64,000 nucleotides of DNA from a virus (lineage: Duplodnaviria > Caudoviricetes): positions 128,001 to 192,000 of the IMG/VR virus record IMGVR_UViG_3300001580_000006. One strand, written 5' to 3'. The notes beneath the pieces were generated by a model. The model was not told the DNA's origin. It did not search any database and saw only the letters and a program-made list of their open reading frames with translations. This document shows, piece by piece, positions 13,505 through 60,418 of this stretch; position 1 is the first letter of the stretch, and every line of letters starts with the position of its first letter. The position numbers were made by a program, and so were the translations under genes.

Positions 13505-14950
13505 CTATTGCCTACAATCTGAGCTTTCGTATGCTCGTATGTAATCCATTACATGCTCTGACCACCCGTCAATGTGCGTCCACTTGCCATACCCAATCCC
13601 GTTCTTTTCAATAGAGACGTTGATTAGATAGTTTTCGGTAGCCCAAGAGGTGTCAGCGTTGGTTGGATCTCCTTTAGAGCCCTTGGCATCACAATCCTGT
13701 TCGTCAGTGAACACTATAACTCTATCAGCGCTACCTTCCTCTCTTTTGACGTAGTCCATAGCCTGTTTCAGGAATATTCCGCCACCGCCTAGGCTCTGCT
13801 CTGCCTTCTTTACTGCATCTATTAGAGCAAAGCCATAACGCGGAGCAACTAAAGCAGTTTGATGCACCCTAGTGTGGTCGTTGCCGGCAGTACAGTAGAT
13901 CCGTGCATCCACACACCGTTCTCTAGCAATAACAGCTAAAGCAGCAGCAACATCTAGACGATTACGGTCGGATTTGGCTGATATATTGCCGCGCATAGAG
14001 CCGGAAACATCTATGATTAAAACTGTTTTGCCTGGAAGCTTGGAGTATCCATCCAAGTATTTCAACATTGCTTGCTCAATCTTGTTTTCCCACTGCGGGG
14101 CAAACTGAGCAGCTGATATGAACTGGAATGGTAGCACCATGCCGGGCTTCAGCCTATCTAAGGCTTCGAACACTAGCTTCTCGTTAACTCCGTTGTCTTT
14201 GAAGTTACGCAGATTGCGTAGTACAGCCAAAGCTCCCATCTTATTGTTGGATAAAAGACGCTCAAACTCTAGGCGCTTAGCTTCCTTGTCGTTGCCACAG
14301 GCTGATATGGCTACTTCCCAGGTGTCTGGGGTAGCTAAGGTGTTGGCGCGTAGCCTTCCCCAAAGAGTAGCCTGGTCCTCATCAATAGGACGAGGGTGCA
14401 CTAAGCATAGAACATCGCGTAGCTTTATTACCTTGTCATCGCCGCGGTATTTAGCCAACTGATACTCGTCGAAGCGGCGGAACGCACTAGCTAAACCAAC
14501 CTTGAACTGCCAAGGAATCGGCACCCTCTTGCCATATCTGTGATCAGCAGTACGCTTAGGCTTAGCTTGTCTATTTATACCCCAATATATGGCTAATATT
14601 TCTGAGAGCTCGTCTGCTCTTTTAATAATCTCCGGAAGCAGTTGCCCAACCAGCTTCTTATGCTCTGGGTGTCTTAGCATTAGGTTGGCTATAAGCAGCG
14701 GTGCATGACGGATTTTCATATCCAGTCTGGTCTCAATAGCCATATTGAATACGCTATGAGGATCTACTTGGCCTATTAGCTCAGCTATACGCTCGGCTAT
14801 AGACATACCACCCTCATAGAATGAATCTTCCCAAAGCATGCACGCCATTAGTGACCGCCTCAGTTTCTTTTCAGCTGAAATCATGGCGGCATTTGCGCCA
14901 CCAGCTGTATAAACTGGAGGTCTTTTGGCAGTTGTGTTTATTCTCGCCAT
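13505..14950 (-). CDS. Ro60/TROVE domain RNA-binding protein with C-terminal vWA (start reassigned to ATG 14950)
   Basis: FDEYQLAKY, LRDVL.LVHP, TPDTWE, MGALAVLRNLRN, LPFQF, DVSGSM and FTDEQ vWA motifs; GGGAG RBS before MARINTT. Confidence 0.93.
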   Translation of the reverse strand: MARINTTAKRPPVYTAGGANAAMISAEKKLRRSLMACMLWEDSFYEGGMSIAERIAELIGQVDPHSVFNMAIETRLDMKIRHAPLLIANLMLRHPEHKKLVGQLLPEIIKRADELSEILAIYWGINRQAKPKRTADHRYGKRVPIPWQFKVGLASAFRRFDEYQLAKYRGDDKVIKLRDVLCLVHPRPIDEDQATLWGRLRANTLATPDTWEVAISACGNDKEAKRLEFERLLSNNKMGALAVLRNLRNFKDNGVNEKLVFEALDRLKPGMVLPFQFISAAQFAPQWENKIEQAMLKYLDGYSKLPGKTVLIIDVSGSMRGNISAKSDRNRLDVAAALAVIARERCVDARIYCTAGNDHTRVHQTALVAPRYGFALIDAVKKAEQSLGGGGIFLKQAMDYVKREEGSADRVIVFTDEQDCDAKGSKGDPTNADTSWATENYLINVSIEKNGIGYGKWTHIDGWSEHVMDYIRAYESSDCRQ

Positions 14951-15200
14951 AGTCTTACTCCCTTTTTGACTAGGTAATTTGATTGGCCCCGCCGTACACG
15001 GCTTTACGTGCGACAACAAAAGGCTTAGTATACTATACCTATTGCTGGTTTTGATCAAACTAACCGCGGGTTATTGTTCGGCTTGCCAGATTCTCACTGG
15101 ACGCTCGTCCTTACGGACATTCAATATAGTGTTGCTGCCCCACTATTATCGGCTGTGGGTCACCATCATACAAAGTGCCATTTTGCGACTAAGCACCATG

Positions 15201-15382: not shown

Positions 15383-15471
15383 GCTACTCGGCATAGTCGA
15401 ATCGGGCAGTACTGCGGTTTCCCGCGTGCTCTGATTAAGGGCGAAGTAACCCAACTCTTCACCTGAGTAGC
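15383..15471 (-). ncRNA. Y-RNA-like RNA (Ro60-associated)
   Basis: GCTACTC-A-GG-TGAA-GAGTTGGG-TTACTTCG...CCCGATTC-GACTATG-CC-GAGTAGC terminal stem; upstream of TROVE; architecture repeated 4 times in window. Confidence 0.75.
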
Positions 15472-15480
15472 TTTTCTAAC

Positions 15481-15550
15481 TTGCCCGGAATAAGCGACTT
15501 GAGTATATTATCGTTTACAGTCGAAGTAACCCAAGCCTACACCAGGGCAA
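15481..15550 (-). ncRNA. Y-RNA-like RNA (Ro60-associated)
   Basis: TTGCCC-T-GG-TGTA-GGCTTGGG-TTACTTCG...CTCAAGTC-GCTTATT-CC-GGGCAA terminal stem. Confidence 0.75.
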
Positions 15551-22638: not shown

Positions 22639-23112
22639 TTAAACTCCATCATGCTGAGTGTGGTGCTTGGCAATCTTCGTTACTGGACGAAGCTTGGCTA
22701 ACTCCTCTTCCTTCTTAGCCATCTTCTCTCTTTCCTCGGCCGCGTACAAGCGGCTAAGATGCTTGACGTATATCTTGCGGTGCCGGTGCACGTCTTCTAG
22801 CATTCCTTCTGCCTTCTTCTCCAAGATAAGATTCTTTAGCCGGTCATTGCACCTAGAGACGGCTTCGCCATATCTTTCGGTGGCACTGTACTTCATGTAC
22901 GGATTGTTCCTAGCCCGCTCTATTGCAACAGTGCGTCCTCTCTTACGAGAGTAGTTATCTAAGGCATTGTGTAGCACAATACCAATAGATATTTCGTCAT
23001 TATCGTACCTTGCGGCCACAGTAATGCCGCCGCTATTTTTGCAGCAGCCGCCTCCGCATGGGGGTTGATGTCGTATGAACAATAGTTCCATGGCTGACTC
23101 CTTATAGTCCAT
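22639..23112 (-). CDS. hypothetical phage protein
   Basis: GGITVA...DNYSRKRGRTVA. Confidence 0.55.
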   Translation of the reverse strand: MDYKESAMELLFIRHQPPCGGGCCKNSGGITVAARYDNDEISIGIVLHNALDNYSRKRGRTVAIERARNNPYMKYSATERYGEAVSRCNDRLKNLILEKKAEGMLEDVHRHRKIYVKHLSRLYAAEEREKMAKKEEELAKLRPVTKIAKHHTQHDGV

Positions 23113-24262
23113 GTTTTAATTGATATTCAGGGCTTATAACTTTTAGTTGTACTCTGCCAAGTTTTGGATGCTTGCGTTCTACTGTAGGTTTCCACACTAG
23201 TCCCTCTCTTAGTTCACTAGCTAGTAATGCACTTGGTCCATTAGAGAACTCAACCATCTTGTCTTTGGCTGGCAGCTCTCCTTTATAAACTACTGGTACA
23301 AACGGTAGTCCTAACTCTTCTGCTATCTTCGTAGCCATATCGTGATTGACGTACACACCTGCAATCATTATGTCGAAGACCCTAAAGTCGTTTTGTACTA
23401 ATTTATAAACGTTGCGAACAGCAGCTCCTACCGATGGTCCTATAACCTCTGCCTGCACTGCGATATCTCCACTATCGAAGCCGAACGAGTTGCTTTCAAA
23501 GAACTTACGCAGTCGTTTCTCTACGTCCCAGCGTTTAGAAACCTCTACCCAGTGATTCTTGCCATCGAAGTTTTTGCCTACGCCAAGCTTACGCAGCAAC
23601 CAGAGGACAGCTCTATTCCATAGTTTGCCTTCTCCAGAACGGTACTTTAGTACAGACCTAGAGCATACACCATAGACCCCATCTTTCAAATAGAACGTGG
23701 AGGAGCAGCCCTCAAGCTTTTCTGTGGCAACATATTCGCCAGGGAATTGGTCGAATACATCTGGATAATTCTGCCACCTTTCAGAATCAGTCTGAGGGAT
23801 GTGCTCTGGAAAGTGATATTTCTTCCTCGCCCAGCTAACACGCTTTAGTAAGAATCTTTGTAGCTTGCCATATGATTCTCTCTTATCTAGCTCCTCAAGA
23901 GGTTCGTACTTCGCTATATCATAGAACTTACTAGCGTCATCACCTTCCTTCATACCAGCTGGGCAAGGCTGCAACAAACCCTGGGATAGAACTCCACCCA
24001 TCTTCATAGTACGTAGACGATACTCGGCTTTGTCCTTAGCACGAGCTTTTAAAAAGCCGAACTCTGGTCTATCCATTTTTAGTATGGAATCAGGAGGCAT
24101 AAAGGTAACAAGGTCGCCTACTTTATAGTTACCTTTTTGATCTATTACTTGGTAGCCAAGTACATAATATAGCTCTATGCGGTCTTTGCCTTCAATTGGC
24201 TCAACCTTTAGGATTTTGGTAATAGGGCAAGTAAACGTGCTCATTGGTGGTTCTTTTTCCAC
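23102..24262 (-). CDS. RNA ligase (DRB0094/Rnl2-like) with N-terminal OB domain
   Basis: PIEGKDRIE, GVLSQGL, TEKLEG, CSR, AEVIG, FRVFDI, REGLVWK, KVIS..Y. Confidence 0.88.
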   Translation of the reverse strand: MEKEPPMSTFTCPITKILKVEPIEGKDRIELYYVLGYQVIDQKGNYKVGDLVTFMPPDSILKMDRPEFGFLKARAKDKAEYRLRTMKMGGVLSQGLLQPCPAGMKEGDDASKFYDIAKYEPLEELDKRESYGKLQRFLLKRVSWARKKYHFPEHIPQTDSERWQNYPDVFDQFPGEYVATEKLEGCSSTFYLKDGVYGVCSRSVLKYRSGEGKLWNRAVLWLLRKLGVGKNFDGKNHWVEVSKRWDVEKRLRKFFESNSFGFDSGDIAVQAEVIGPSVGAAVRNVYKLVQNDFRVFDIMIAGVYVNHDMATKIAEELGLPFVPVVYKGELPAKDKMVEFSNGPSALLASELREGLVWKPTVERKHPKLGRVQLKVISPEYQLKHGL

Positions 24263-24686
24263 TCCTTTAGTGTATATGATGGGTCATAGCTACAACTTTG
24301 GCAGATGTGGCCTGGGAATGCAAATGTTTTGCAGTTTGGGCATCTCCATGCACCAACATAGTCTACAAATGACATAGCGTTAGAGAGCTCCTGCTCTATT
24401 AGCTTAAATTCGTCTGTGGTACTGTGTGCTTCTGACAAAGACGTTAGCCAACTACATTTCTGACATAAAGGGTGTTTTCCGCCAGGGCACTCCGCCCTTT
24501 CATCAAATGCTAAAGGTTTTGTGTAATAGTTTGCACACGGTGGCCTTACTTCATTAGCAAGGTGTTTGTCAAGAAGCTCAGTATGCAAGTTACTTAAGTT
24601 GTCGAGGGCCTTGGTTGGAATCTTGTTGCCATGCCTATATGGTGCTGTAACTTTATTTACAGCAAGCAACAACTTTTCGTAATCTG

Positions 24687-25289
24687 TCATTGATATAATC
24701 CACCATCAGTTATGTACTTAGCTACCGCTTCTGGAACAAGGTGTGCTATGTGACCCTGACTTTCTACTATTGCTCTGATAGATGTTGAGCTTATGTTAAG
24801 GTTGTCTACATTTATTAGCTTAAGCTTACTTCGCCATTTATCTGGTATGTCATAACCAAGCCTTGACATTACGCAAACAGTAGATAACTCAAATAGTCGA
24901 TCTGGGTCTTTCCAAGTAGATAGCTCCGCTGCTTGATCAGTTCCCATCAGTAGGAATAGTTCGCAATGCTTTCCGACCCCCTCTCTCATATGAGCTAAGG
25001 TGTCTACTGTATATGAAATATCGCTGTTGTTTACTTCGTAGTCAGAATAAAGAAATGTTGGACGGAAAGGCTTGGGCTCAGAGTATGGCTCTATTGCAAG
25101 CTTTACCATCTCTAAGCGCGTCTTAGCACTAGTAGCGTATCTACGCTTATGAGGAGATTTATTTCCTGTCGGAATAAAAATTACTCCGTCGAGCCCTAAC
25201 TGTAGCCCGGCGGAGTAGGCAGAACTTAGGTGACCGTTGTGTATTGGGTCAAAGGTGCCACCGAACACCCCTATTTTTGCTTTGTGCAT
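24687..25289 (-). CDS. nadD: nicotinate-nucleotide adenylyltransferase
   Basis: GGTFDPIHNGH, SYTVDTL, LMGTD, W, ISSTSIR. Confidence 0.92.
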   Translation of the reverse strand: MHKAKIGVFGGTFDPIHNGHLSSAYSAGLQLGLDGVIFIPTGNKSPHKRRYATSAKTRLEMVKLAIEPYSEPKPFRPTFLYSDYEVNNSDISYTVDTLAHMREGVGKHCELFLLMGTDQAAELSTWKDPDRLFELSTVCVMSRLGYDIPDKWRSKLKLINVDNLNISSTSIRAIVESQGHIAHLVPEAVAKYITDGGLYQ

Positions 25290-25508: not shown

Positions 25509-25639
25509 TGGTAGGGGAGCCAGGGGTCGAACCTGGAACCTCACGCTCCTAATGCGAAGTAACCCTAATCTACACTAGGCATAAGCCAGAATTAGCGACT
25601 AAGGCAACGGATGCGCTCTGCCAATTGAGCTACTCCCCT
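25509..25639 (-). ncRNA. tRNA (anticodon TAG) interrupted at position 29/30 by a 55-nt Y-RNA-like module
   Basis: Acceptor AGGGGAG/CTCCCCT-A-CCA, D and T arms intact; deleting 25556-25610 gives a 76-nt cloverleaf with CATGC-AT-TAG-GA-GCGTG. Confidence 0.82.
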
Positions 25640-25866
25640 ACATTTAAGTTTTCCTTATGTGCTTTATTGATGTACCACAATGTGGACAGTGCTGTATTCT
25701 ATAAAACTTACCAACTGTTGGTGTTATAAAAAAGTTTAGGTCATGGTCTGTCCACGGTGTGGTAATTACTCTCTGTAGCAGTATGTCCTCTGCCATATCC
25801 TTACAGCAGAACTCTATTGCAGAGACGTTCCATTTTTCTTTATAGTGTACTGTCATAACTTCCTTT

Positions 25867-26000
25867 TGGTGGGGGAGGACCGATTTGAACGGCCAACCTA
25901 CGGATTAATAGTCGAAGGATTCCTAGTCTTCACCAGGCTTACGCCGGGACCGGCGACTAGGCCTTTGTTTCGTTGCTCTAGCCAGTTGAGCTACTCCCCC
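25867..26000 (-). ncRNA. tRNA (anticodon ATT) interrupted at position 29/30 by a 57-nt Y-RNA-like module
   Basis: Acceptor GGGGGAG/CTCCCCC-A-CCA; deleting 25914-25970 gives a 77-nt cloverleaf with ACGGA-CT-ATT-AA-TCCGT. Confidence 0.82.
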
Positions 26001-26226: not shown

Positions 26227-26255
26227 ATTATATCACAAAATTGTTTAAAAGTCAA
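26227..26255 (-). promoter_or_regulatory. sigma70-type promoter upstream of the interrupted tRNAs
   Basis: TTGACT-17 nt-TATAAT with extended -10 TG. Confidence 0.8.
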
Positions 26256-52093: not shown

Positions 52094-53224
52094 TCACGCT
52101 CTTTCATTTTCCTTACCCTTGGCTTTGATTGGACACAATGGCTTTATGGTAAACTCTTTGATTACTGTAGGTTTTATAAGTTCGGATATCATTTTGTGGT
52201 CTTTGTAGGCATCCGGAGATTCGTCAATGGTTGATTGATCTACGCTAGTTGTAAAGATTCCTTCCATGTCCTTTTTGAATTTGTCAAGGCTTAGGTTCCT
52301 TTTAGCGTCGCCACGGCTCATGACACGGCCAGCGCCGTGTGGGGCGGAATTGTTCCAATCGGAGTTCCCCTTGCCTCGTCCGATTATCAACCCGTCGCGC
52401 ATATTCCATGGTATAACAACCCGCTCTTCTAAGTTGGCACGAATGGCGCCCTTGCGAATCATGAAGTAACCCGGGTTATTTGGAAAGAATTCTATGTAGT
52501 TGTGAACAGACTCGATGATCCGGTCATAGACTGGGTCTAACCCTATTGTTTTCAATATGTTAGTAAGTATAGTATACCGGTTTGCGGCTGCCCAGATATG
52601 GGCGACCTTTACGGTTTGTAGATAGTCAGATAGGTTTCTGCCAGTAACATATTCTAGACCGCCCATCTTACCGGTTTCCTCAACAGCTTTGGCTTGGTAG
52701 AACTCCGCTATGCTTTTTCCGAAGTTTCTTGATCCAGTGTGAATAGTGATCCAGATGGTGTCGTTTTCTGCTAAACCAATCTCTATGAAATGGTTACCAC
52801 CTCCTAAGGTTCCTATTGACCTACCTACGTAGTTTACATCCTGCCCTGTTATAGTAGCGGTATCAGCGTAGTATTCTTTGCCAACAACTGGCTTTGGATG
52901 CACGCTGAACCCCATAGGCACCACCTCTCTTATAAGCTTCTCAAACAGCTCTAAAGCAATTGGAAGCTTGGTGCCGATACAGTAGGAAAGCATGCCGCAG
53001 TTAAGGTCAACACCCACTATATTCGGAATGGCGAAGTTGGCGTCAGTATAGGCAGTAAAGCCTATTACACAGCCGGCCCCTTTGTGTGCATCTGGCATAA
53101 TGCGTATTTTAGCGTCCTTAAATACAGCCTGATTAAGCAGATTAAGGATTTGAGCTTGGGCCTCTGGCTCCACTGTGTGGGCAAAGACTATAGCCTTGGC
53201 ATACTTTCCATCGACTTCGTACAA
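52094..53224 (-). CDS. rtcB: RtcB RNA ligase
   Basis: MPDAHKG.G, VGVD..CGM, GTLGGGNHFIE, HTGSR, HNY, RKGA, HGAGR, DESP.AYK. Confidence 0.96.
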   Translation of the reverse strand: MYEVDGKYAKAIVFAHTVEPEAQAQILNLLNQAVFKDAKIRIMPDAHKGAGCVIGFTAYTDANFAIPNIVGVDLNCGMLSYCIGTKLPIALELFEKLIREVVPMGFSVHPKPVVGKEYYADTATITGQDVNYVGRSIGTLGGGNHFIEIGLAENDTIWITIHTGSRNFGKSIAEFYQAKAVEETGKMGGLEYVTGRNLSDYLQTVKVAHIWAAANRYTILTNILKTIGLDPVYDRIIESVHNYIEFFPNNPGYFMIRKGAIRANLEERVVIPWNMRDGLIIGRGKGNSDWNNSAPHGAGRVMSRGDAKRNLSLDKFKKDMEGIFTTSVDQSTIDESPDAYKDHKMISELIKPTVIKEFTIKPLCPIKAKGKENERA

Positions 53225-60043: not shown

Positions 60044-60418
60044 TGGTGGAGGCGGTGGGAATCGAACCCACGTCCAACACTGTTTCAAAACCAACATCTA
60101 CTACAATAGACTGTCGTGTATACGTACTTTCAGAGCAGACAGACAGACCCCATTAAGTACGGAGCAAGTACATTCAGCTACGGCAACCCTACTCAAACCT
60201 CCGTAGCTCGCCCTACCTAAATGATGGTTCTTTCAACTCTGATAGGGTAGAGTATCAGAACCAGGCTACTGGTTATTAAGCAGCAGCGCGGGCAGCCCAC
60301 ACCTGAGGGGCTGGGAATGCAATGTGTTTGGCATTTGCATGGTTTGGTGGTTTAACGAGCCTCGCCTTCTCGTGTAGCAGTCAGGATCTCCTCGATGCTG
60401 TCGAAACCTGTCGCCCCC
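60044..60418 (-). ncRNA. ssrA: tmRNA
   Basis: 5' GGGGGCG...TTCGAC; 3' GTGGGTTCGATTCCCAC-CGCCTCC-A-CCA with G3:U70; internal tag frame AKHIAFPAPQVWAARAAA followed by TAA TAA. Confidence 0.93.

What the first reader, a model, noticed from the sequence alone, without database searches (positions are those of the whole stretch)
25509..26000. Two tRNA genes interrupted at the same position (29/30) by a permuted Y-RNA module: tRNA-Y RNA chimeras or a new tRNA intron type
Seen: both genes have intact acceptor (with CCA), D and T arms. Each carries an insertion (25556-25610, 55 nt; 25914-25970, 57 nt) after nucleotide 29, and both insertions end in CTTC. Deleting them gives canonical 76- and 77-nt cloverleaves with 5-bp anticodon stems and 7-nt loops (AT-TAG-GA and CT-ATT-AA). 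The insertions fold as stem, 7x4 internal loop, 2 bp, single-base bulge, GGC-tetraloop-GCC. This is the same structure, with compensatory changes, as the two free-standing RNAs beside the Ro60/TROVE gene, but with the two halves in swapped order. Established: bacterial Ro60 binds Y RNAs; YrlA-type Y RNAs mimic tRNA with a closed acceptor stem; in Salmonella rsr, the Y RNAs and rtcB share an operon. Inference: these RNAs have true tRNA ends, so they could be processed by RNase P/CCA enzyme and possibly charged while tethering Ro60. Alternatively the module is excised and the halves ligated by the phage RtcB or RNA ligase. The restored anticodons are odd (TAG on a short-variable-arm body; ATT is rare in bacteria), which favours a decoy or tether role. 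I do not know of a description of this topology.
Basis: partly seen in the sequence, partly recalled or inferred. Interest (0 to 1): 0.92.

Follow-up and report, generated by a model that had tools for sequence, protein, structure and literature searches.

The report
tRNA-shaped Y RNAs with true tRNA ends
Two phage genes encode complete tRNA-shaped RNAs that carry the docking arm for the RNA-binding ring protein Ro60 as a side branch of the anticodon stem. This is an undescribed, non-rearranged form of the known bacterial "Y RNA" tRNA mimics. It recurs in many phages, including the cultured gut phage crAss001, and is most likely a permanent part of the RNA and not an intron.

Summary
Genes at 25509-25639 and 25867-26000 (minus strand) have intact acceptor stems with encoded CCA, plus D and T arms. 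Each carries a 55 or 57-nt hairpin in the 5' strand of the anticodon stem.

The hairpin is a circular permutation of the two small Y RNAs upstream of the phage Ro60/TROVE gene. Its motifs correspond to those published for YrlA-type Y RNAs.

The same "native-end" architecture is a real class. I found 32 distinct examples with 21 different acceptor stems. Ro60 homologs lie in 25 of 40 loci, usually 30-450 nt away. Every helix shows strong covariation. Phage crAss001 holds one, unannotated.

The same branch point occurs in circularly permuted relatives, where nothing could be spliced, so I read the hairpin as a permanent Ro60 handle. No intron signature was found, but no RNA data could be obtained.

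Published work describes YrlA as permuted, without a free CCA end or an anticodon loop, so this is a new variant of a known kind. Earlier notes of this scan report the same idea on other phages with a different handle. Ro60 binding, processing and charging remain untested.

The parts
25867..26000 (-). t2: native-end tRNA/Y-RNA chimera (134 nt, encoded CCA). The anticodon-like loop is CUAUUAA.
   Evidence: (R1 116 bits).
25914..25970 (-). t2 handle: a closed Ro60-type module (H2 stem, 7x4 internal loop, 2 bp, U bulge, GGC-GUAA-GCC). It branches after nt 29-30 of the tRNA body.
25509..25639 (-). t1: native-end tRNA/Y-RNA chimera (131 nt, encoded CCA). The anticodon-like loop is AUUAGGA.
   Evidence: (R1 115 bits).
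25556..25610 (-). t1 handle: a closed Ro60-type module with tetraloop UUAU.
15483..15549 (-). Y1: a free-standing minimal Y RNA with the same handle in open order (5' strand, loop, 3' strand).
15383..15471 (-). Y2: a second free-standing Y RNA with the same handle.
   Evidence: (z -3.35).
13505..15058 (-). Ro60 gene (TROVE plus vWA domains). The open frame is as listed; the likely start is the ATG near 14950.
   Evidence: TROVE 46.9 bits.
26227..26255 (-). Promoter-like site TTGACT-17-TATAAT (11 of 12, TG extension). It lies upstream of a 66-codon ORF, then t2, a 70-codon ORF, t1 and a 76-codon ORF.
   Evidence: Consensus match only.
23102..24262 (-). RNA ligase gene (PF09414 with a PHA02142 OB fold), 1.2 kb downstream on the same strand. 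It is context and is not shown to act on t1 or t2.
52172..53113 (-). RtcB RNA ligase gene. It is context only.
   Evidence: 147 bits.

Best explanation
t1 and t2 are stable non-coding RNAs of the YrlA-type Y RNA family, built in the natural tRNA order instead of the published circularly permuted order.

Structure:
- Each RNA is a full tRNA body with an open acceptor stem and CCA, a D arm, a variable loop and a T arm.
- The anticodon stem is composite. Its top 2-3 pairs use the nucleotides that follow the D arm. Its bottom 2-3 pairs and a 7-nt anticodon-like loop come from the strand that returns from the branch.
- Between these two parts, a closed hairpin branches off. It carries the Ro60-binding motif GGUGWAG (the counterpart of GNCGAAG) and the UUAC motif (the counterpart of YUAY).

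Inferred steps:
- The RNAs are cut out of a polycistronic transcript by RNase P and 3' tRNA-processing enzymes.
- The phage Ro60 ring docks on the hairpin.
- The tRNA body then brings a tRNA-binding factor, or tRNA-directed enzymes, next to Ro60.

What is shown and what is not: the anatomy, the conservation and the linkage to Ro60 genes are shown. Binding, processing, and the identity and purpose of the tethered partner are inferred.
For: Module identity:
- The handle is shared with Y1 and Y2 beside Ro60, with compensatory stem changes and swapped half-order.

Family link:
- In 39 phage loci with Ro60 relatives (37-51% identity), the RNAs upstream of Ro60 carry the same handle, with either GGUGWAG or GGCGAAG. 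Most of them are permuted tRNAs.
- One such RNA matches Rfam YrlA RF02553 over its full length at 37.5 bits, E 1.3e-6.
- The motifs correspond to the GNCGAAN0-1G and YUAY motifs of Chen et al. 2014.

The native-end class:
- There are 32 distinct RNAs with 21 different acceptor stems in viral and metagenome contigs.
- A Ro60 homolog lies in the fetched part of 25 of 40 loci, mostly 30-450 nt away.
- A copy sits about 255 nt after the TROVE gene of crAss001-type phages and is unannotated in all 24 records.

Covariation on an unfitted MAFFT alignment of 16 RNAs:
- 91.5% of cells are paired, against 67.5% when shuffled and at most 44% when slid.
- H2 is 89.5% paired, the closing hairpin 85.5% and the top of the anticodon stem 96.8%.
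- The stem-top pairs occur as CG, GC, AU and UG. 30 of 31 cells pair, against 15.8 +/- 2.6 in shuffles, with 0 of 20000 shuffles reaching the observed value.
- RNAalifold independently predicts the acceptor, D, H2, H1 (with its U bulge) and T helices.
- GUG-AGA and U-CUUC are invariant in all 16.
Against: - Length, ends and any splicing are therefore unobserved.
- Ro60 binding is inferred from gene linkage and motif identity only.
- In this genome t1 and t2 lie 10.5 kb from Ro60, not beside it.
- The Ro motif differs from the published GNCGAA by C to U.
- Acceptor pairing was a selection criterion for the 32 RNAs, so it is not evidence in itself.
- An RNA ligase lies 1.2 kb downstream and RtcB is in the window. 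This would also suit a cut-and-rejoin pathway.
Confidence: 0.7

Rival explanations
1. The hairpin is an intervening sequence. It is excised by an unknown endonuclease, and the halves are joined by the phage RNA ligase or RtcB. This would give working tRNA-Leu(UAG) and tRNA-Asn(AUU), perhaps with Ro60 marking or gating the step.
For: In-silico deletion restores perfect cloverleaves. An RNA ligase lies 1.2 kb downstream on the same strand, and RtcB is in the window. RtcB is the tRNA-splicing ligase of archaea and animals (established knowledge).
Against: - The insert keeps an invariant protein-binding motif across 16 lineages.
- Permuted relatives share the same branch point and composite stem, although they have closed acceptor stems and nothing to restore.
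- The two junctions flank the base of one helix, which is not a bulge-helix-bulge site.
- At 55-57 nt the insert cannot hold a group I core, and no Rfam intron family matches at E<=10.
- The phage already has two tRNA-Leu(tag) genes and a tRNA-Asn(gtt) gene.
- A second native subtype has the handle in place of the anticodon loop, so removing it leaves no anticodon (L219b, L240b, L248a).
Confidence: 0.07
2. The RNAs are real and structured as described, but the closed hairpin in t1 and t2 works without Ro60. It could bind another protein or only stabilise the RNA. On this view the tRNA body is the active part, for example as a decoy for host anticodon nucleases or tRNA-modifying enzymes.
For: t1 and t2 lie 10.5 kb from Ro60, among small ORFs and near an RNA ligase. 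The anticodon-like loop is kept as N-U-N-N-U-A-A in 15 of 16 natives. This is the loop type of tRNAs that read ANN codons. No Ro60 gene was seen on three fragmentary records that hold natives.
Against: The hairpin is the same handle as in the RNAs directly beside Ro60, in this genome and elsewhere. Most natives with enough flanking DNA do sit next to Ro60. A decoy role and Ro60 binding are also not mutually exclusive.
Confidence: 0.13
3. With the branch retained, the RNAs are aminoacylated and act in translation or on the ribosome, in the manner of tmRNA.
For: They have an intact acceptor stem, discriminator base, encoded CCA and T arm. They keep an anticodon-like loop. M. smegmatis YrlA acquires a CCA end in vivo (Chen et al. 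2014).
Against: - A 55-nt helix projecting from anticodon-stem position 29-30 would clash with the decoding-site contacts of the small subunit (inference from known ribosome structures).
- Permuted relatives keep the same loop without any acceptor end.
- t1 pairs a UAG anticodon with a short variable arm, and t2 has an unusual A34.
Confidence: 0.05

Closest known systems
YrlA, the tRNA-mimicking bacterial and phage Y RNA bound by Ro60/Rsr (Rfam RF02553; Chen et al. 2014, PMC4201824; Wang et al. 2018, 10.1101/312249)
   Same: It is genetically linked to Ro60. It has a 5'-strand Ro motif (GNCGAAG; here GGUGWAG) and a YUAY motif (here UUAC). Its D arm (UAGCUCA..GGUAGAGC) and T arm are nearly invariant. 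The nucleotides after the D arm pair with the strand before the variable loop.
   Different: Published YrlA is circularly permuted: the T arm comes before the D arm, a loop closes the acceptor stem, and the RNA ends sit in the Ro helix. It is stated to lack a free CCA end and an anticodon loop. Here the order is that of a tRNA, the acceptor stem is open with encoded CCA, a tetraloop closes the Ro helix, and a 7-nt anticodon-like loop is kept. RF02553 does not detect t1 or t2.
[quoted passage not shown] 2014)
   Same: The end product has a tRNA-like free 5' end and a CCA 3' end on the acceptor stem, while still carrying the Ro module. This shows that such ends are compatible with Y RNA biology.
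   Different: There it is a two-piece RNA made by cutting a permuted precursor. Here it is one continuous chain, encoded that way.
Minimal Y RNAs: YrlB, and Thermus phage phiLo Yrl1/Yrl2 with phage Ro60 (PMC12135203)
   Same: Y1 and Y2 of this window are of this kind: a 5'-3' stem, an internal loop with the Ro motif, and a location upstream of a phage Ro60 gene.
   Different: They have no tRNA body. t1 and t2 add a complete one.
tRNA introns at non-canonical positions (archaeal bulge-helix-bulge introns; bacterial group I introns in the anticodon loop)
   Same: A tRNA gene is interrupted in the anticodon arm, and the cloverleaf is restored by deletion.
   Different: There is no bulge-helix-bulge geometry and no group I core. 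The host is bacterial (the phage carries a tmRNA). The insert carries a conserved protein-binding motif that is shared with free-standing RNAs.
tmRNA
   Same: It has natural tRNA ends with CCA, a tRNA-like acceptor/T domain, a large insertion where the anticodon arm would be, and a dedicated protein partner.
   Different: t1 and t2 have no open reading frame or pseudoknots, their D arm is intact, and the presumed partner is Ro60, not SmpB.

Membership tests
YrlA-type Y RNA (Rfam RF02553; Chen et al. 2014) | Encoded with a Ro60/TROVE gene. | tested here: met
   The same genome holds a TROVE plus vWA gene. It lies 10.5 kb from t1 and t2, whereas Y1 and Y2 are adjacent to it. For the native-end class, 25 of 40 loci hold a Ro60 homolog, mostly within 450 nt.
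YrlA-type Y RNA (Rfam RF02553; Chen et al. 2014) | Ro60-binding 5'-strand motif GNCGAAN0-1G. | tested here: inconclusive
   t1 has AGUGUAG and t2 has GGUGAAG, with U where the consensus has C. RNAs beside related Ro60 genes show both GGUGAAG and the exact GGCGAAG. Whether the motif is functionally equivalent was not tested.
YrlA-type Y RNA (Rfam RF02553; Chen et al. 2014) | tRNA-like D and T arms with conserved tertiary nucleotides, plus the YUAY motif. | tested here: met
   The GCUC/GAGC D stem is invariant in 16 of 16. G18G19, GUUC, A58 and A15:U48 are present. UUAC is present in t1 and in 15 of 16 natives, while t2 has AUCC.
YrlA-type Y RNA (Rfam RF02553; Chen et al. 2014) | Circularly permuted order: T arm 5' of the D arm, acceptor stem closed by a loop, RNA ends in the Ro helix. 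| tested here: not met
   The order is acceptor 5' strand, D arm, handle, anticodon-like hairpin, T arm, acceptor 3' strand, CCA.
YrlA-type Y RNA (Rfam RF02553; Chen et al. 2014) | Reaches the gathering score of the Rfam model. | tested here: not met
   There is no RF02553 match in the window even at E<=10. A permuted relative scores 37.5 bits against a gathering score of 69.
YrlA-type Y RNA (Rfam RF02553; Chen et al. 2014) | Physically bound by Ro60. | not testable with these tools
   This needs immunoprecipitation or a gel-shift assay.
Canonical tRNA (RF00005) | 7-bp acceptor stem, D and T arms, and conserved tertiary nucleotides. | tested here: met
   The homolog at L140:6702-6829 passes the Rfam tRNA model at 43.3 bits.
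Canonical tRNA (RF00005) | Continuous anticodon arm, and detection by standard tRNA finders. | tested here: not met
   A 55 or 57-nt branch interrupts the stem. Default ARAGORN and the Rfam tRNA model miss t1 and t2.
Canonical tRNA (RF00005) | Aminoacylation and decoding. | not testable with these tools
   No assay is available here.
tRNA intron (group I or bulge-helix-bulge) | A group I catalytic core, or a bulge-helix-bulge motif at the two junctions. | tested here: not met
   The insert is 55-57 nt. No intron family matches at E<=10. The junction linkers flank the base of a single helix.
tRNA intron (group I or bulge-helix-bulge) | A spliced product exists. | not testable with these tools

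The most novel reading that the evidence does not exclude
The Ro60 handle is a removable, protein-marked intervening sequence. Ro60 holds the precursor, a nuclease cuts at the two junctions, and the nearby phage RNA ligase or RtcB seals the anticodon stem. The result would be conditionally matured tRNAs. That would be the first enzyme-catalysed tRNA splicing pathway in a bacterial virus, and a functional link between Ro60, Y RNAs and RtcB.
Probability: 0.06. Interest if true: 0.92.

Novelty: new variant of a known kind. Interest (0 to 1): 0.66.

Why it matters
Published Y RNAs of bacteria and phages are described as permuted tRNA mimics that lack a free CCA end and an anticodon loop. What their tRNA-like domain does is still an open question.

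- **New architecture.** This class shows that Ro60 partner RNAs can also be true tRNA-order molecules. They have ends that RNase P, the CCA enzyme, synthetases or EF-Tu could use, and a well-kept anticodon-like loop. Processing, charging and modification therefore become directly testable.
- **Origin of YrlA.** The class supplies unpermuted forms, some in tandem pairs, that the "dimeric tRNA" model for the origin of YrlA predicts but did not have.
- **Annotation.** These genes are missed by tRNA finders and by Rfam. One sits unannotated beside the early-expressed TROVE gene of crAss001, a cultured model of one of the most abundant human gut virus groups.

Tried and rejected
- **First motif scan of viral contigs:** 118 loci, all chance hits in coding DNA.
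- **Second scan:** the pattern was mis-specified and fitted only t2. It gave five chance hits.
- **Third scan:** it returned tandem arrays of open Y RNAs, plus one native (L184).
- **Model R1 over 29 whole Ro60-phage records:** no further native beyond L140. Natives are therefore a minority among Ro60 loci.
- **Genome scan of GTDB species representatives:** no native. Only permuted arrays beside Ro60 were found, in Bradyrhizobium sp. STM 3809, a Pseudomonadota MAG and a Clostridium.
- **A 224.6-kb contig of similar size to this phage (L193):** unrelated.
- **blastn of the region against GenBank phages:** no match.
- **My D-arm parser:** it failed twice before it was corrected. It still mislabels four tandem-array RNAs as native, and I excluded those by eye.
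- **L184:** it has an extra pair between the T and acceptor stems. I left it out of the alignment.
- **Considered and rejected:** a group I intron, a bulge-helix-bulge intron and a decaying pseudogene. The pseudogene reading is contradicted by the covariation.

Full report
**1. What is there.**
The window is bases 128001-192000 of a 223-kb uncultured phage. On the minus strand, t1 (25509-25639) and t2 (25867-26000) each have:
- a 7-bp acceptor stem, A73 and encoded CCA;
- U8 and a GCUC/GAGC D stem with G18G19;
- a 5-nt variable loop ending in U, which pairs with A15;
- a standard T arm.

Default ARAGORN and the Rfam tRNA model miss both RNAs. ARAGORN with introns allowed reports both.

**2. 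What the insert is.**
The phage has a Ro60 gene at 13505-15058 (TROVE 46.9 bits plus vWA). Two small RNAs, Y1 and Y2, lie directly upstream of it at 15383-15549. All four RNAs share three elements:
- a 5' strand: GUGWAG, then a variable stem strand, then UUACUUCG (AUCCUUCG in t2);
- a 3' strand: the complementary stem strand, followed by a (U/A)CGNC..UYC-type loop;
- a short closing stem with one bulged U.

The stem strands differ between copies but stay complementary. In Y1 and Y2 the closing stem holds the RNA ends. In t1 and t2 it is capped by a tetraloop and the far end of the module opens into the tRNA. That is a circular permutation. The motif occurs nowhere else in the genome except one weaker coding match.

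**3. Which family.**
Thirty-nine viral contigs encode Ro60 relatives at 37-51% identity. The non-coding DNA beside those genes holds arrays of RNAs with the same handle, written either GGUGWAG or GGCGAAG. Most are permuted tRNAs, in the order handle 5' strand, anticodon-like hairpin, T arm, closed acceptor stem, D arm, handle 3' strand. One of them matches Rfam YrlA over the whole model at 37.5 bits, E 1.3e-6, which is below the gathering score of 69.

Chen et al. 2014 define YrlA by three features: a GNCGAAN0-1G motif near the 5' end, a YUAY motif, and tRNA-like T and D arms. Here these correspond to GGUGWAG, UUAC and the invariant UAGCUCA..GGUAGAGC D arm. Wang et al. [quoted passage not shown] On this basis t1 and t2 are YrlA-type RNAs in the unpermuted order.

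**4. It is a class, not a one-off.**
- I used a pattern spanning the D stem, the 3' loop, the closing hairpin and the 5' motif. It found 17 viral and 75 metagenome loci.
- I then filtered for a 7/7 acceptor pairing placed correctly around a D arm and a T arm. This left 32 distinct native-end RNAs with 21 different acceptor stems.
- tblastn with the window's Ro60 finds a homolog in the fetched part of 25 of 40 such loci, typically 30-450 nt away. Many of the loci without a hit are contigs of 1-2.6 kb.
- Three pairs of natives lie in tandem, 3-9 nt apart (L219, L240, L248).
- Cultured Bacteroides phage crAss001 and 19 related PhiCrAssBcn isolates (plus four uncultured-phage records at 85-88% identity) carry one about 255 nt after their TROVE gene. 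Nothing is annotated there in any of the 24 records.
- That TROVE gene is an early gene of crAss001 (PMC8375218).
- A scan of GTDB species representatives found no native, only permuted arrays beside Ro60.
- Among 29 whole Ro60-phage records, the model built from t1 and t2 found no native beyond L140.
- Natives are therefore widespread, but a minority form.

**5. Structure.**
I tested a hand-written structure on a plain MAFFT alignment of 16 diverse natives (A4). It pairs 91.5% of cells, against 67.5% in shuffles (0 of 500 reach it) and at most 44% when partners are slid.

| Helix | Cells paired | Note |
|---|---|---|
| T stem | 100% | needed at least 4 of 5 pairs at selection |
| H2 | 89.5% | six pairs with changes on both sides |
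| Closing hairpin | 85.5% | four pairs with changes on both sides |
| Top of the anticodon stem | 96.8% | pairs seen as CG, GC, AU, UG |

Acceptor pairing was a selection criterion, so I do not count it. RNAalifold, given no structure, returns the acceptor, D, H2, closing-hairpin (with the U bulge) and T helices.

The top of the anticodon stem is formed by the first two or three nucleotides after the D arm and the last nucleotides before the variable loop. There, 30 of 31 cells pair, against 15.8 +/- 2.6 in shuffles, and 0 of 20000 shuffles reach the observed value. The rest of the 5' strand comes from the strand that returns from the handle. The handle is therefore a branch at position 28/29 (most members) or 29/30 (t1 and t2).

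**6. Why I do not read it as an intron.**
- The same composite stem is present in the permuted relatives. In 18 of 18 hairpin-type RNAs parsed, both top pairs form with the D-side nucleotides, with seven different dinucleotides. With the handle-side alternative they form in only 9 of 18. Those RNAs have closed acceptor stems, so excision would restore nothing.
- The insert keeps invariant GUG-AGA and U-CUUC in all 16 natives, which fits a protein-binding site.
- The junctions flank the base of one helix and do not form two 3-nt bulges 4 bp apart.
- The insert is too small for a group I core, and no intron family matches.
- A second native subtype has the handle in place of the anticodon loop (L219b, L240b, L248a, L254), so deleting it there leaves no anticodon.
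- The phage already has two tRNA-Leu(tag) genes and a tRNA-Asn(gtt) gene.
- None of this excludes later removal, and I could obtain no RNA reads.

**7. The retained loop.**
In the 16 aligned natives the 7-nt loop has U at position 2 and A at position 7 in 16 of 16, and U-A at positions 5-6 in 15 of 16. The exception is t1 with AUUAGGA. The middle triplets are GCU, UUU, GAU, GUU, CAU, UAU and AUU.

Permuted relatives show the same rule, with UGU, UCU, GCU, UUU and AUU. This is the loop type of tRNAs that read ANN codons and carry a t6A-type modification at A37 (established knowledge). That the loop is recognised by some enzyme, whether a modification enzyme, a synthetase or an anticodon nuclease, is my inference only.

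**8. Context in the window.**
A strong promoter-like site at 26255-26227 precedes a 66-codon ORF, t2, a 70-codon ORF, t1 and a 76-codon ORF, all tightly packed on the minus strand. No Pfam family matches these small ORFs. Further downstream on the same strand lie a cytidylyltransferase-like gene and an RNA ligase (PF09414). RtcB is at 52172-53113. The setting is RNA repair, as in the Salmonella rsr-yrlBA-rtcBA operon (PMC7790460).

**9. Mechanism.**
Shown:
- the anatomy;
- the conservation and covariation;
- the linkage to Ro60 genes;
- the identity of the handle with that of the RNAs beside Ro60.

Inferred:
- release from the transcript by RNase P and 3' tRNA processing;
- Ro60 docking on the closed handle;
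- the tRNA body as the effector-binding part, as proposed for YrlA.

A precedent exists for free tRNA-type ends on a Y RNA. M. smegmatis YrlA is cut by RNase P and receives CCA in vivo.

**10. Novelty.**
I found no description of unpermuted, CCA-ended Y RNAs in any of these sources:
- Chen et al. 2014 and Wang et al. 2018;
- the Thermus phage Ro60 paper;
- the jumbo-phage survey;
- a 2026 preprint on tRNA mimics;
- the crAss001 papers.

Two reviews by the Wolin laboratory were not available. Earlier notes of this scan report the same reading on other phages, for tRNA-shaped RNAs with a different handle (a hairpin plus CAGCAA) beside Ro60-like proteins. They are unchecked leads, not evidence. 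What this case adds is a canonical TROVE Ro60 and a handle that ties directly to published YrlA.

Noticed in passing
L300:4112-4257 (OQ221536.1); MH675552.1:96452-96602: Cultured Bacteroides phage crAss001, 19 PhiCrAssBcn isolates and four uncultured-phage records (85-88% identical) hold an unannotated native-end tRNA/Y-RNA chimera about 255 nt after their TROVE gene. Two minimal Y RNAs precede it.
   Followed up: partly
L300:4360-4500: Downstream of the crAss001-type native lies another odd RNA. Acceptor-like ends (GGGGAUG..CAUCCCC) and a T arm enclose handle motifs, but there is no clear D arm.
   Followed up: no
L139:2069-2190: This is a third wiring. D arm, anticodon arm and T arm are in natural order inside an open handle, so the handle takes the place of the acceptor stem.
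   Followed up: no
L140:8948-9059: The Rfam tRNA model matches at full length (35.5 bits) across a 112-nt gene. Its ~40-nt insertion does not carry the Ro60 handle motifs.
   Followed up: no
L219:937-1205; L240:1-267; L248:834-1098: Natives occur as tandem pairs 3-9 nt apart. One has the handle replacing the anticodon loop, and the other has the side-branch plus anticodon-like hairpin. This is the arrangement from which a permuted YrlA could arise by shifting the transcript ends.
   Followed up: partly
alignment A4, loop columns 104-110; permuted relatives: The anticodon-like loop is kept as N-U-N-N-U-A-A, with triplets typical of ANN-reading tRNAs. t1 (AUUAGGA) is the only exception among the 16 natives.
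   Followed up: partly
window 23102-25289 (-): A cytidylyltransferase-like gene (PF01467) and an RNA ligase with a PHA02142 OB fold (PF09414) follow t1 on the same strand.
   Followed up: no
G033:C1:44109-45515 (record of L188): The Ro60 homolog of this ~58-kb gut-phage contig is read through one in-frame TAA.
   Followed up: no
L284 (Bradyrhizobium sp. STM 3809): A bacterial genome carries the permuted, hairpin-type form (loop UUGCUAA) beside its Ro60 gene. The retained anticodon-like hairpin is therefore not confined to phages.
   Followed up: no
window 60044-60418 (-): The phage encodes a tmRNA (137.5 bits) with the tag peptide AKHIAFPAPQVWAARAAA.
   Followed up: no
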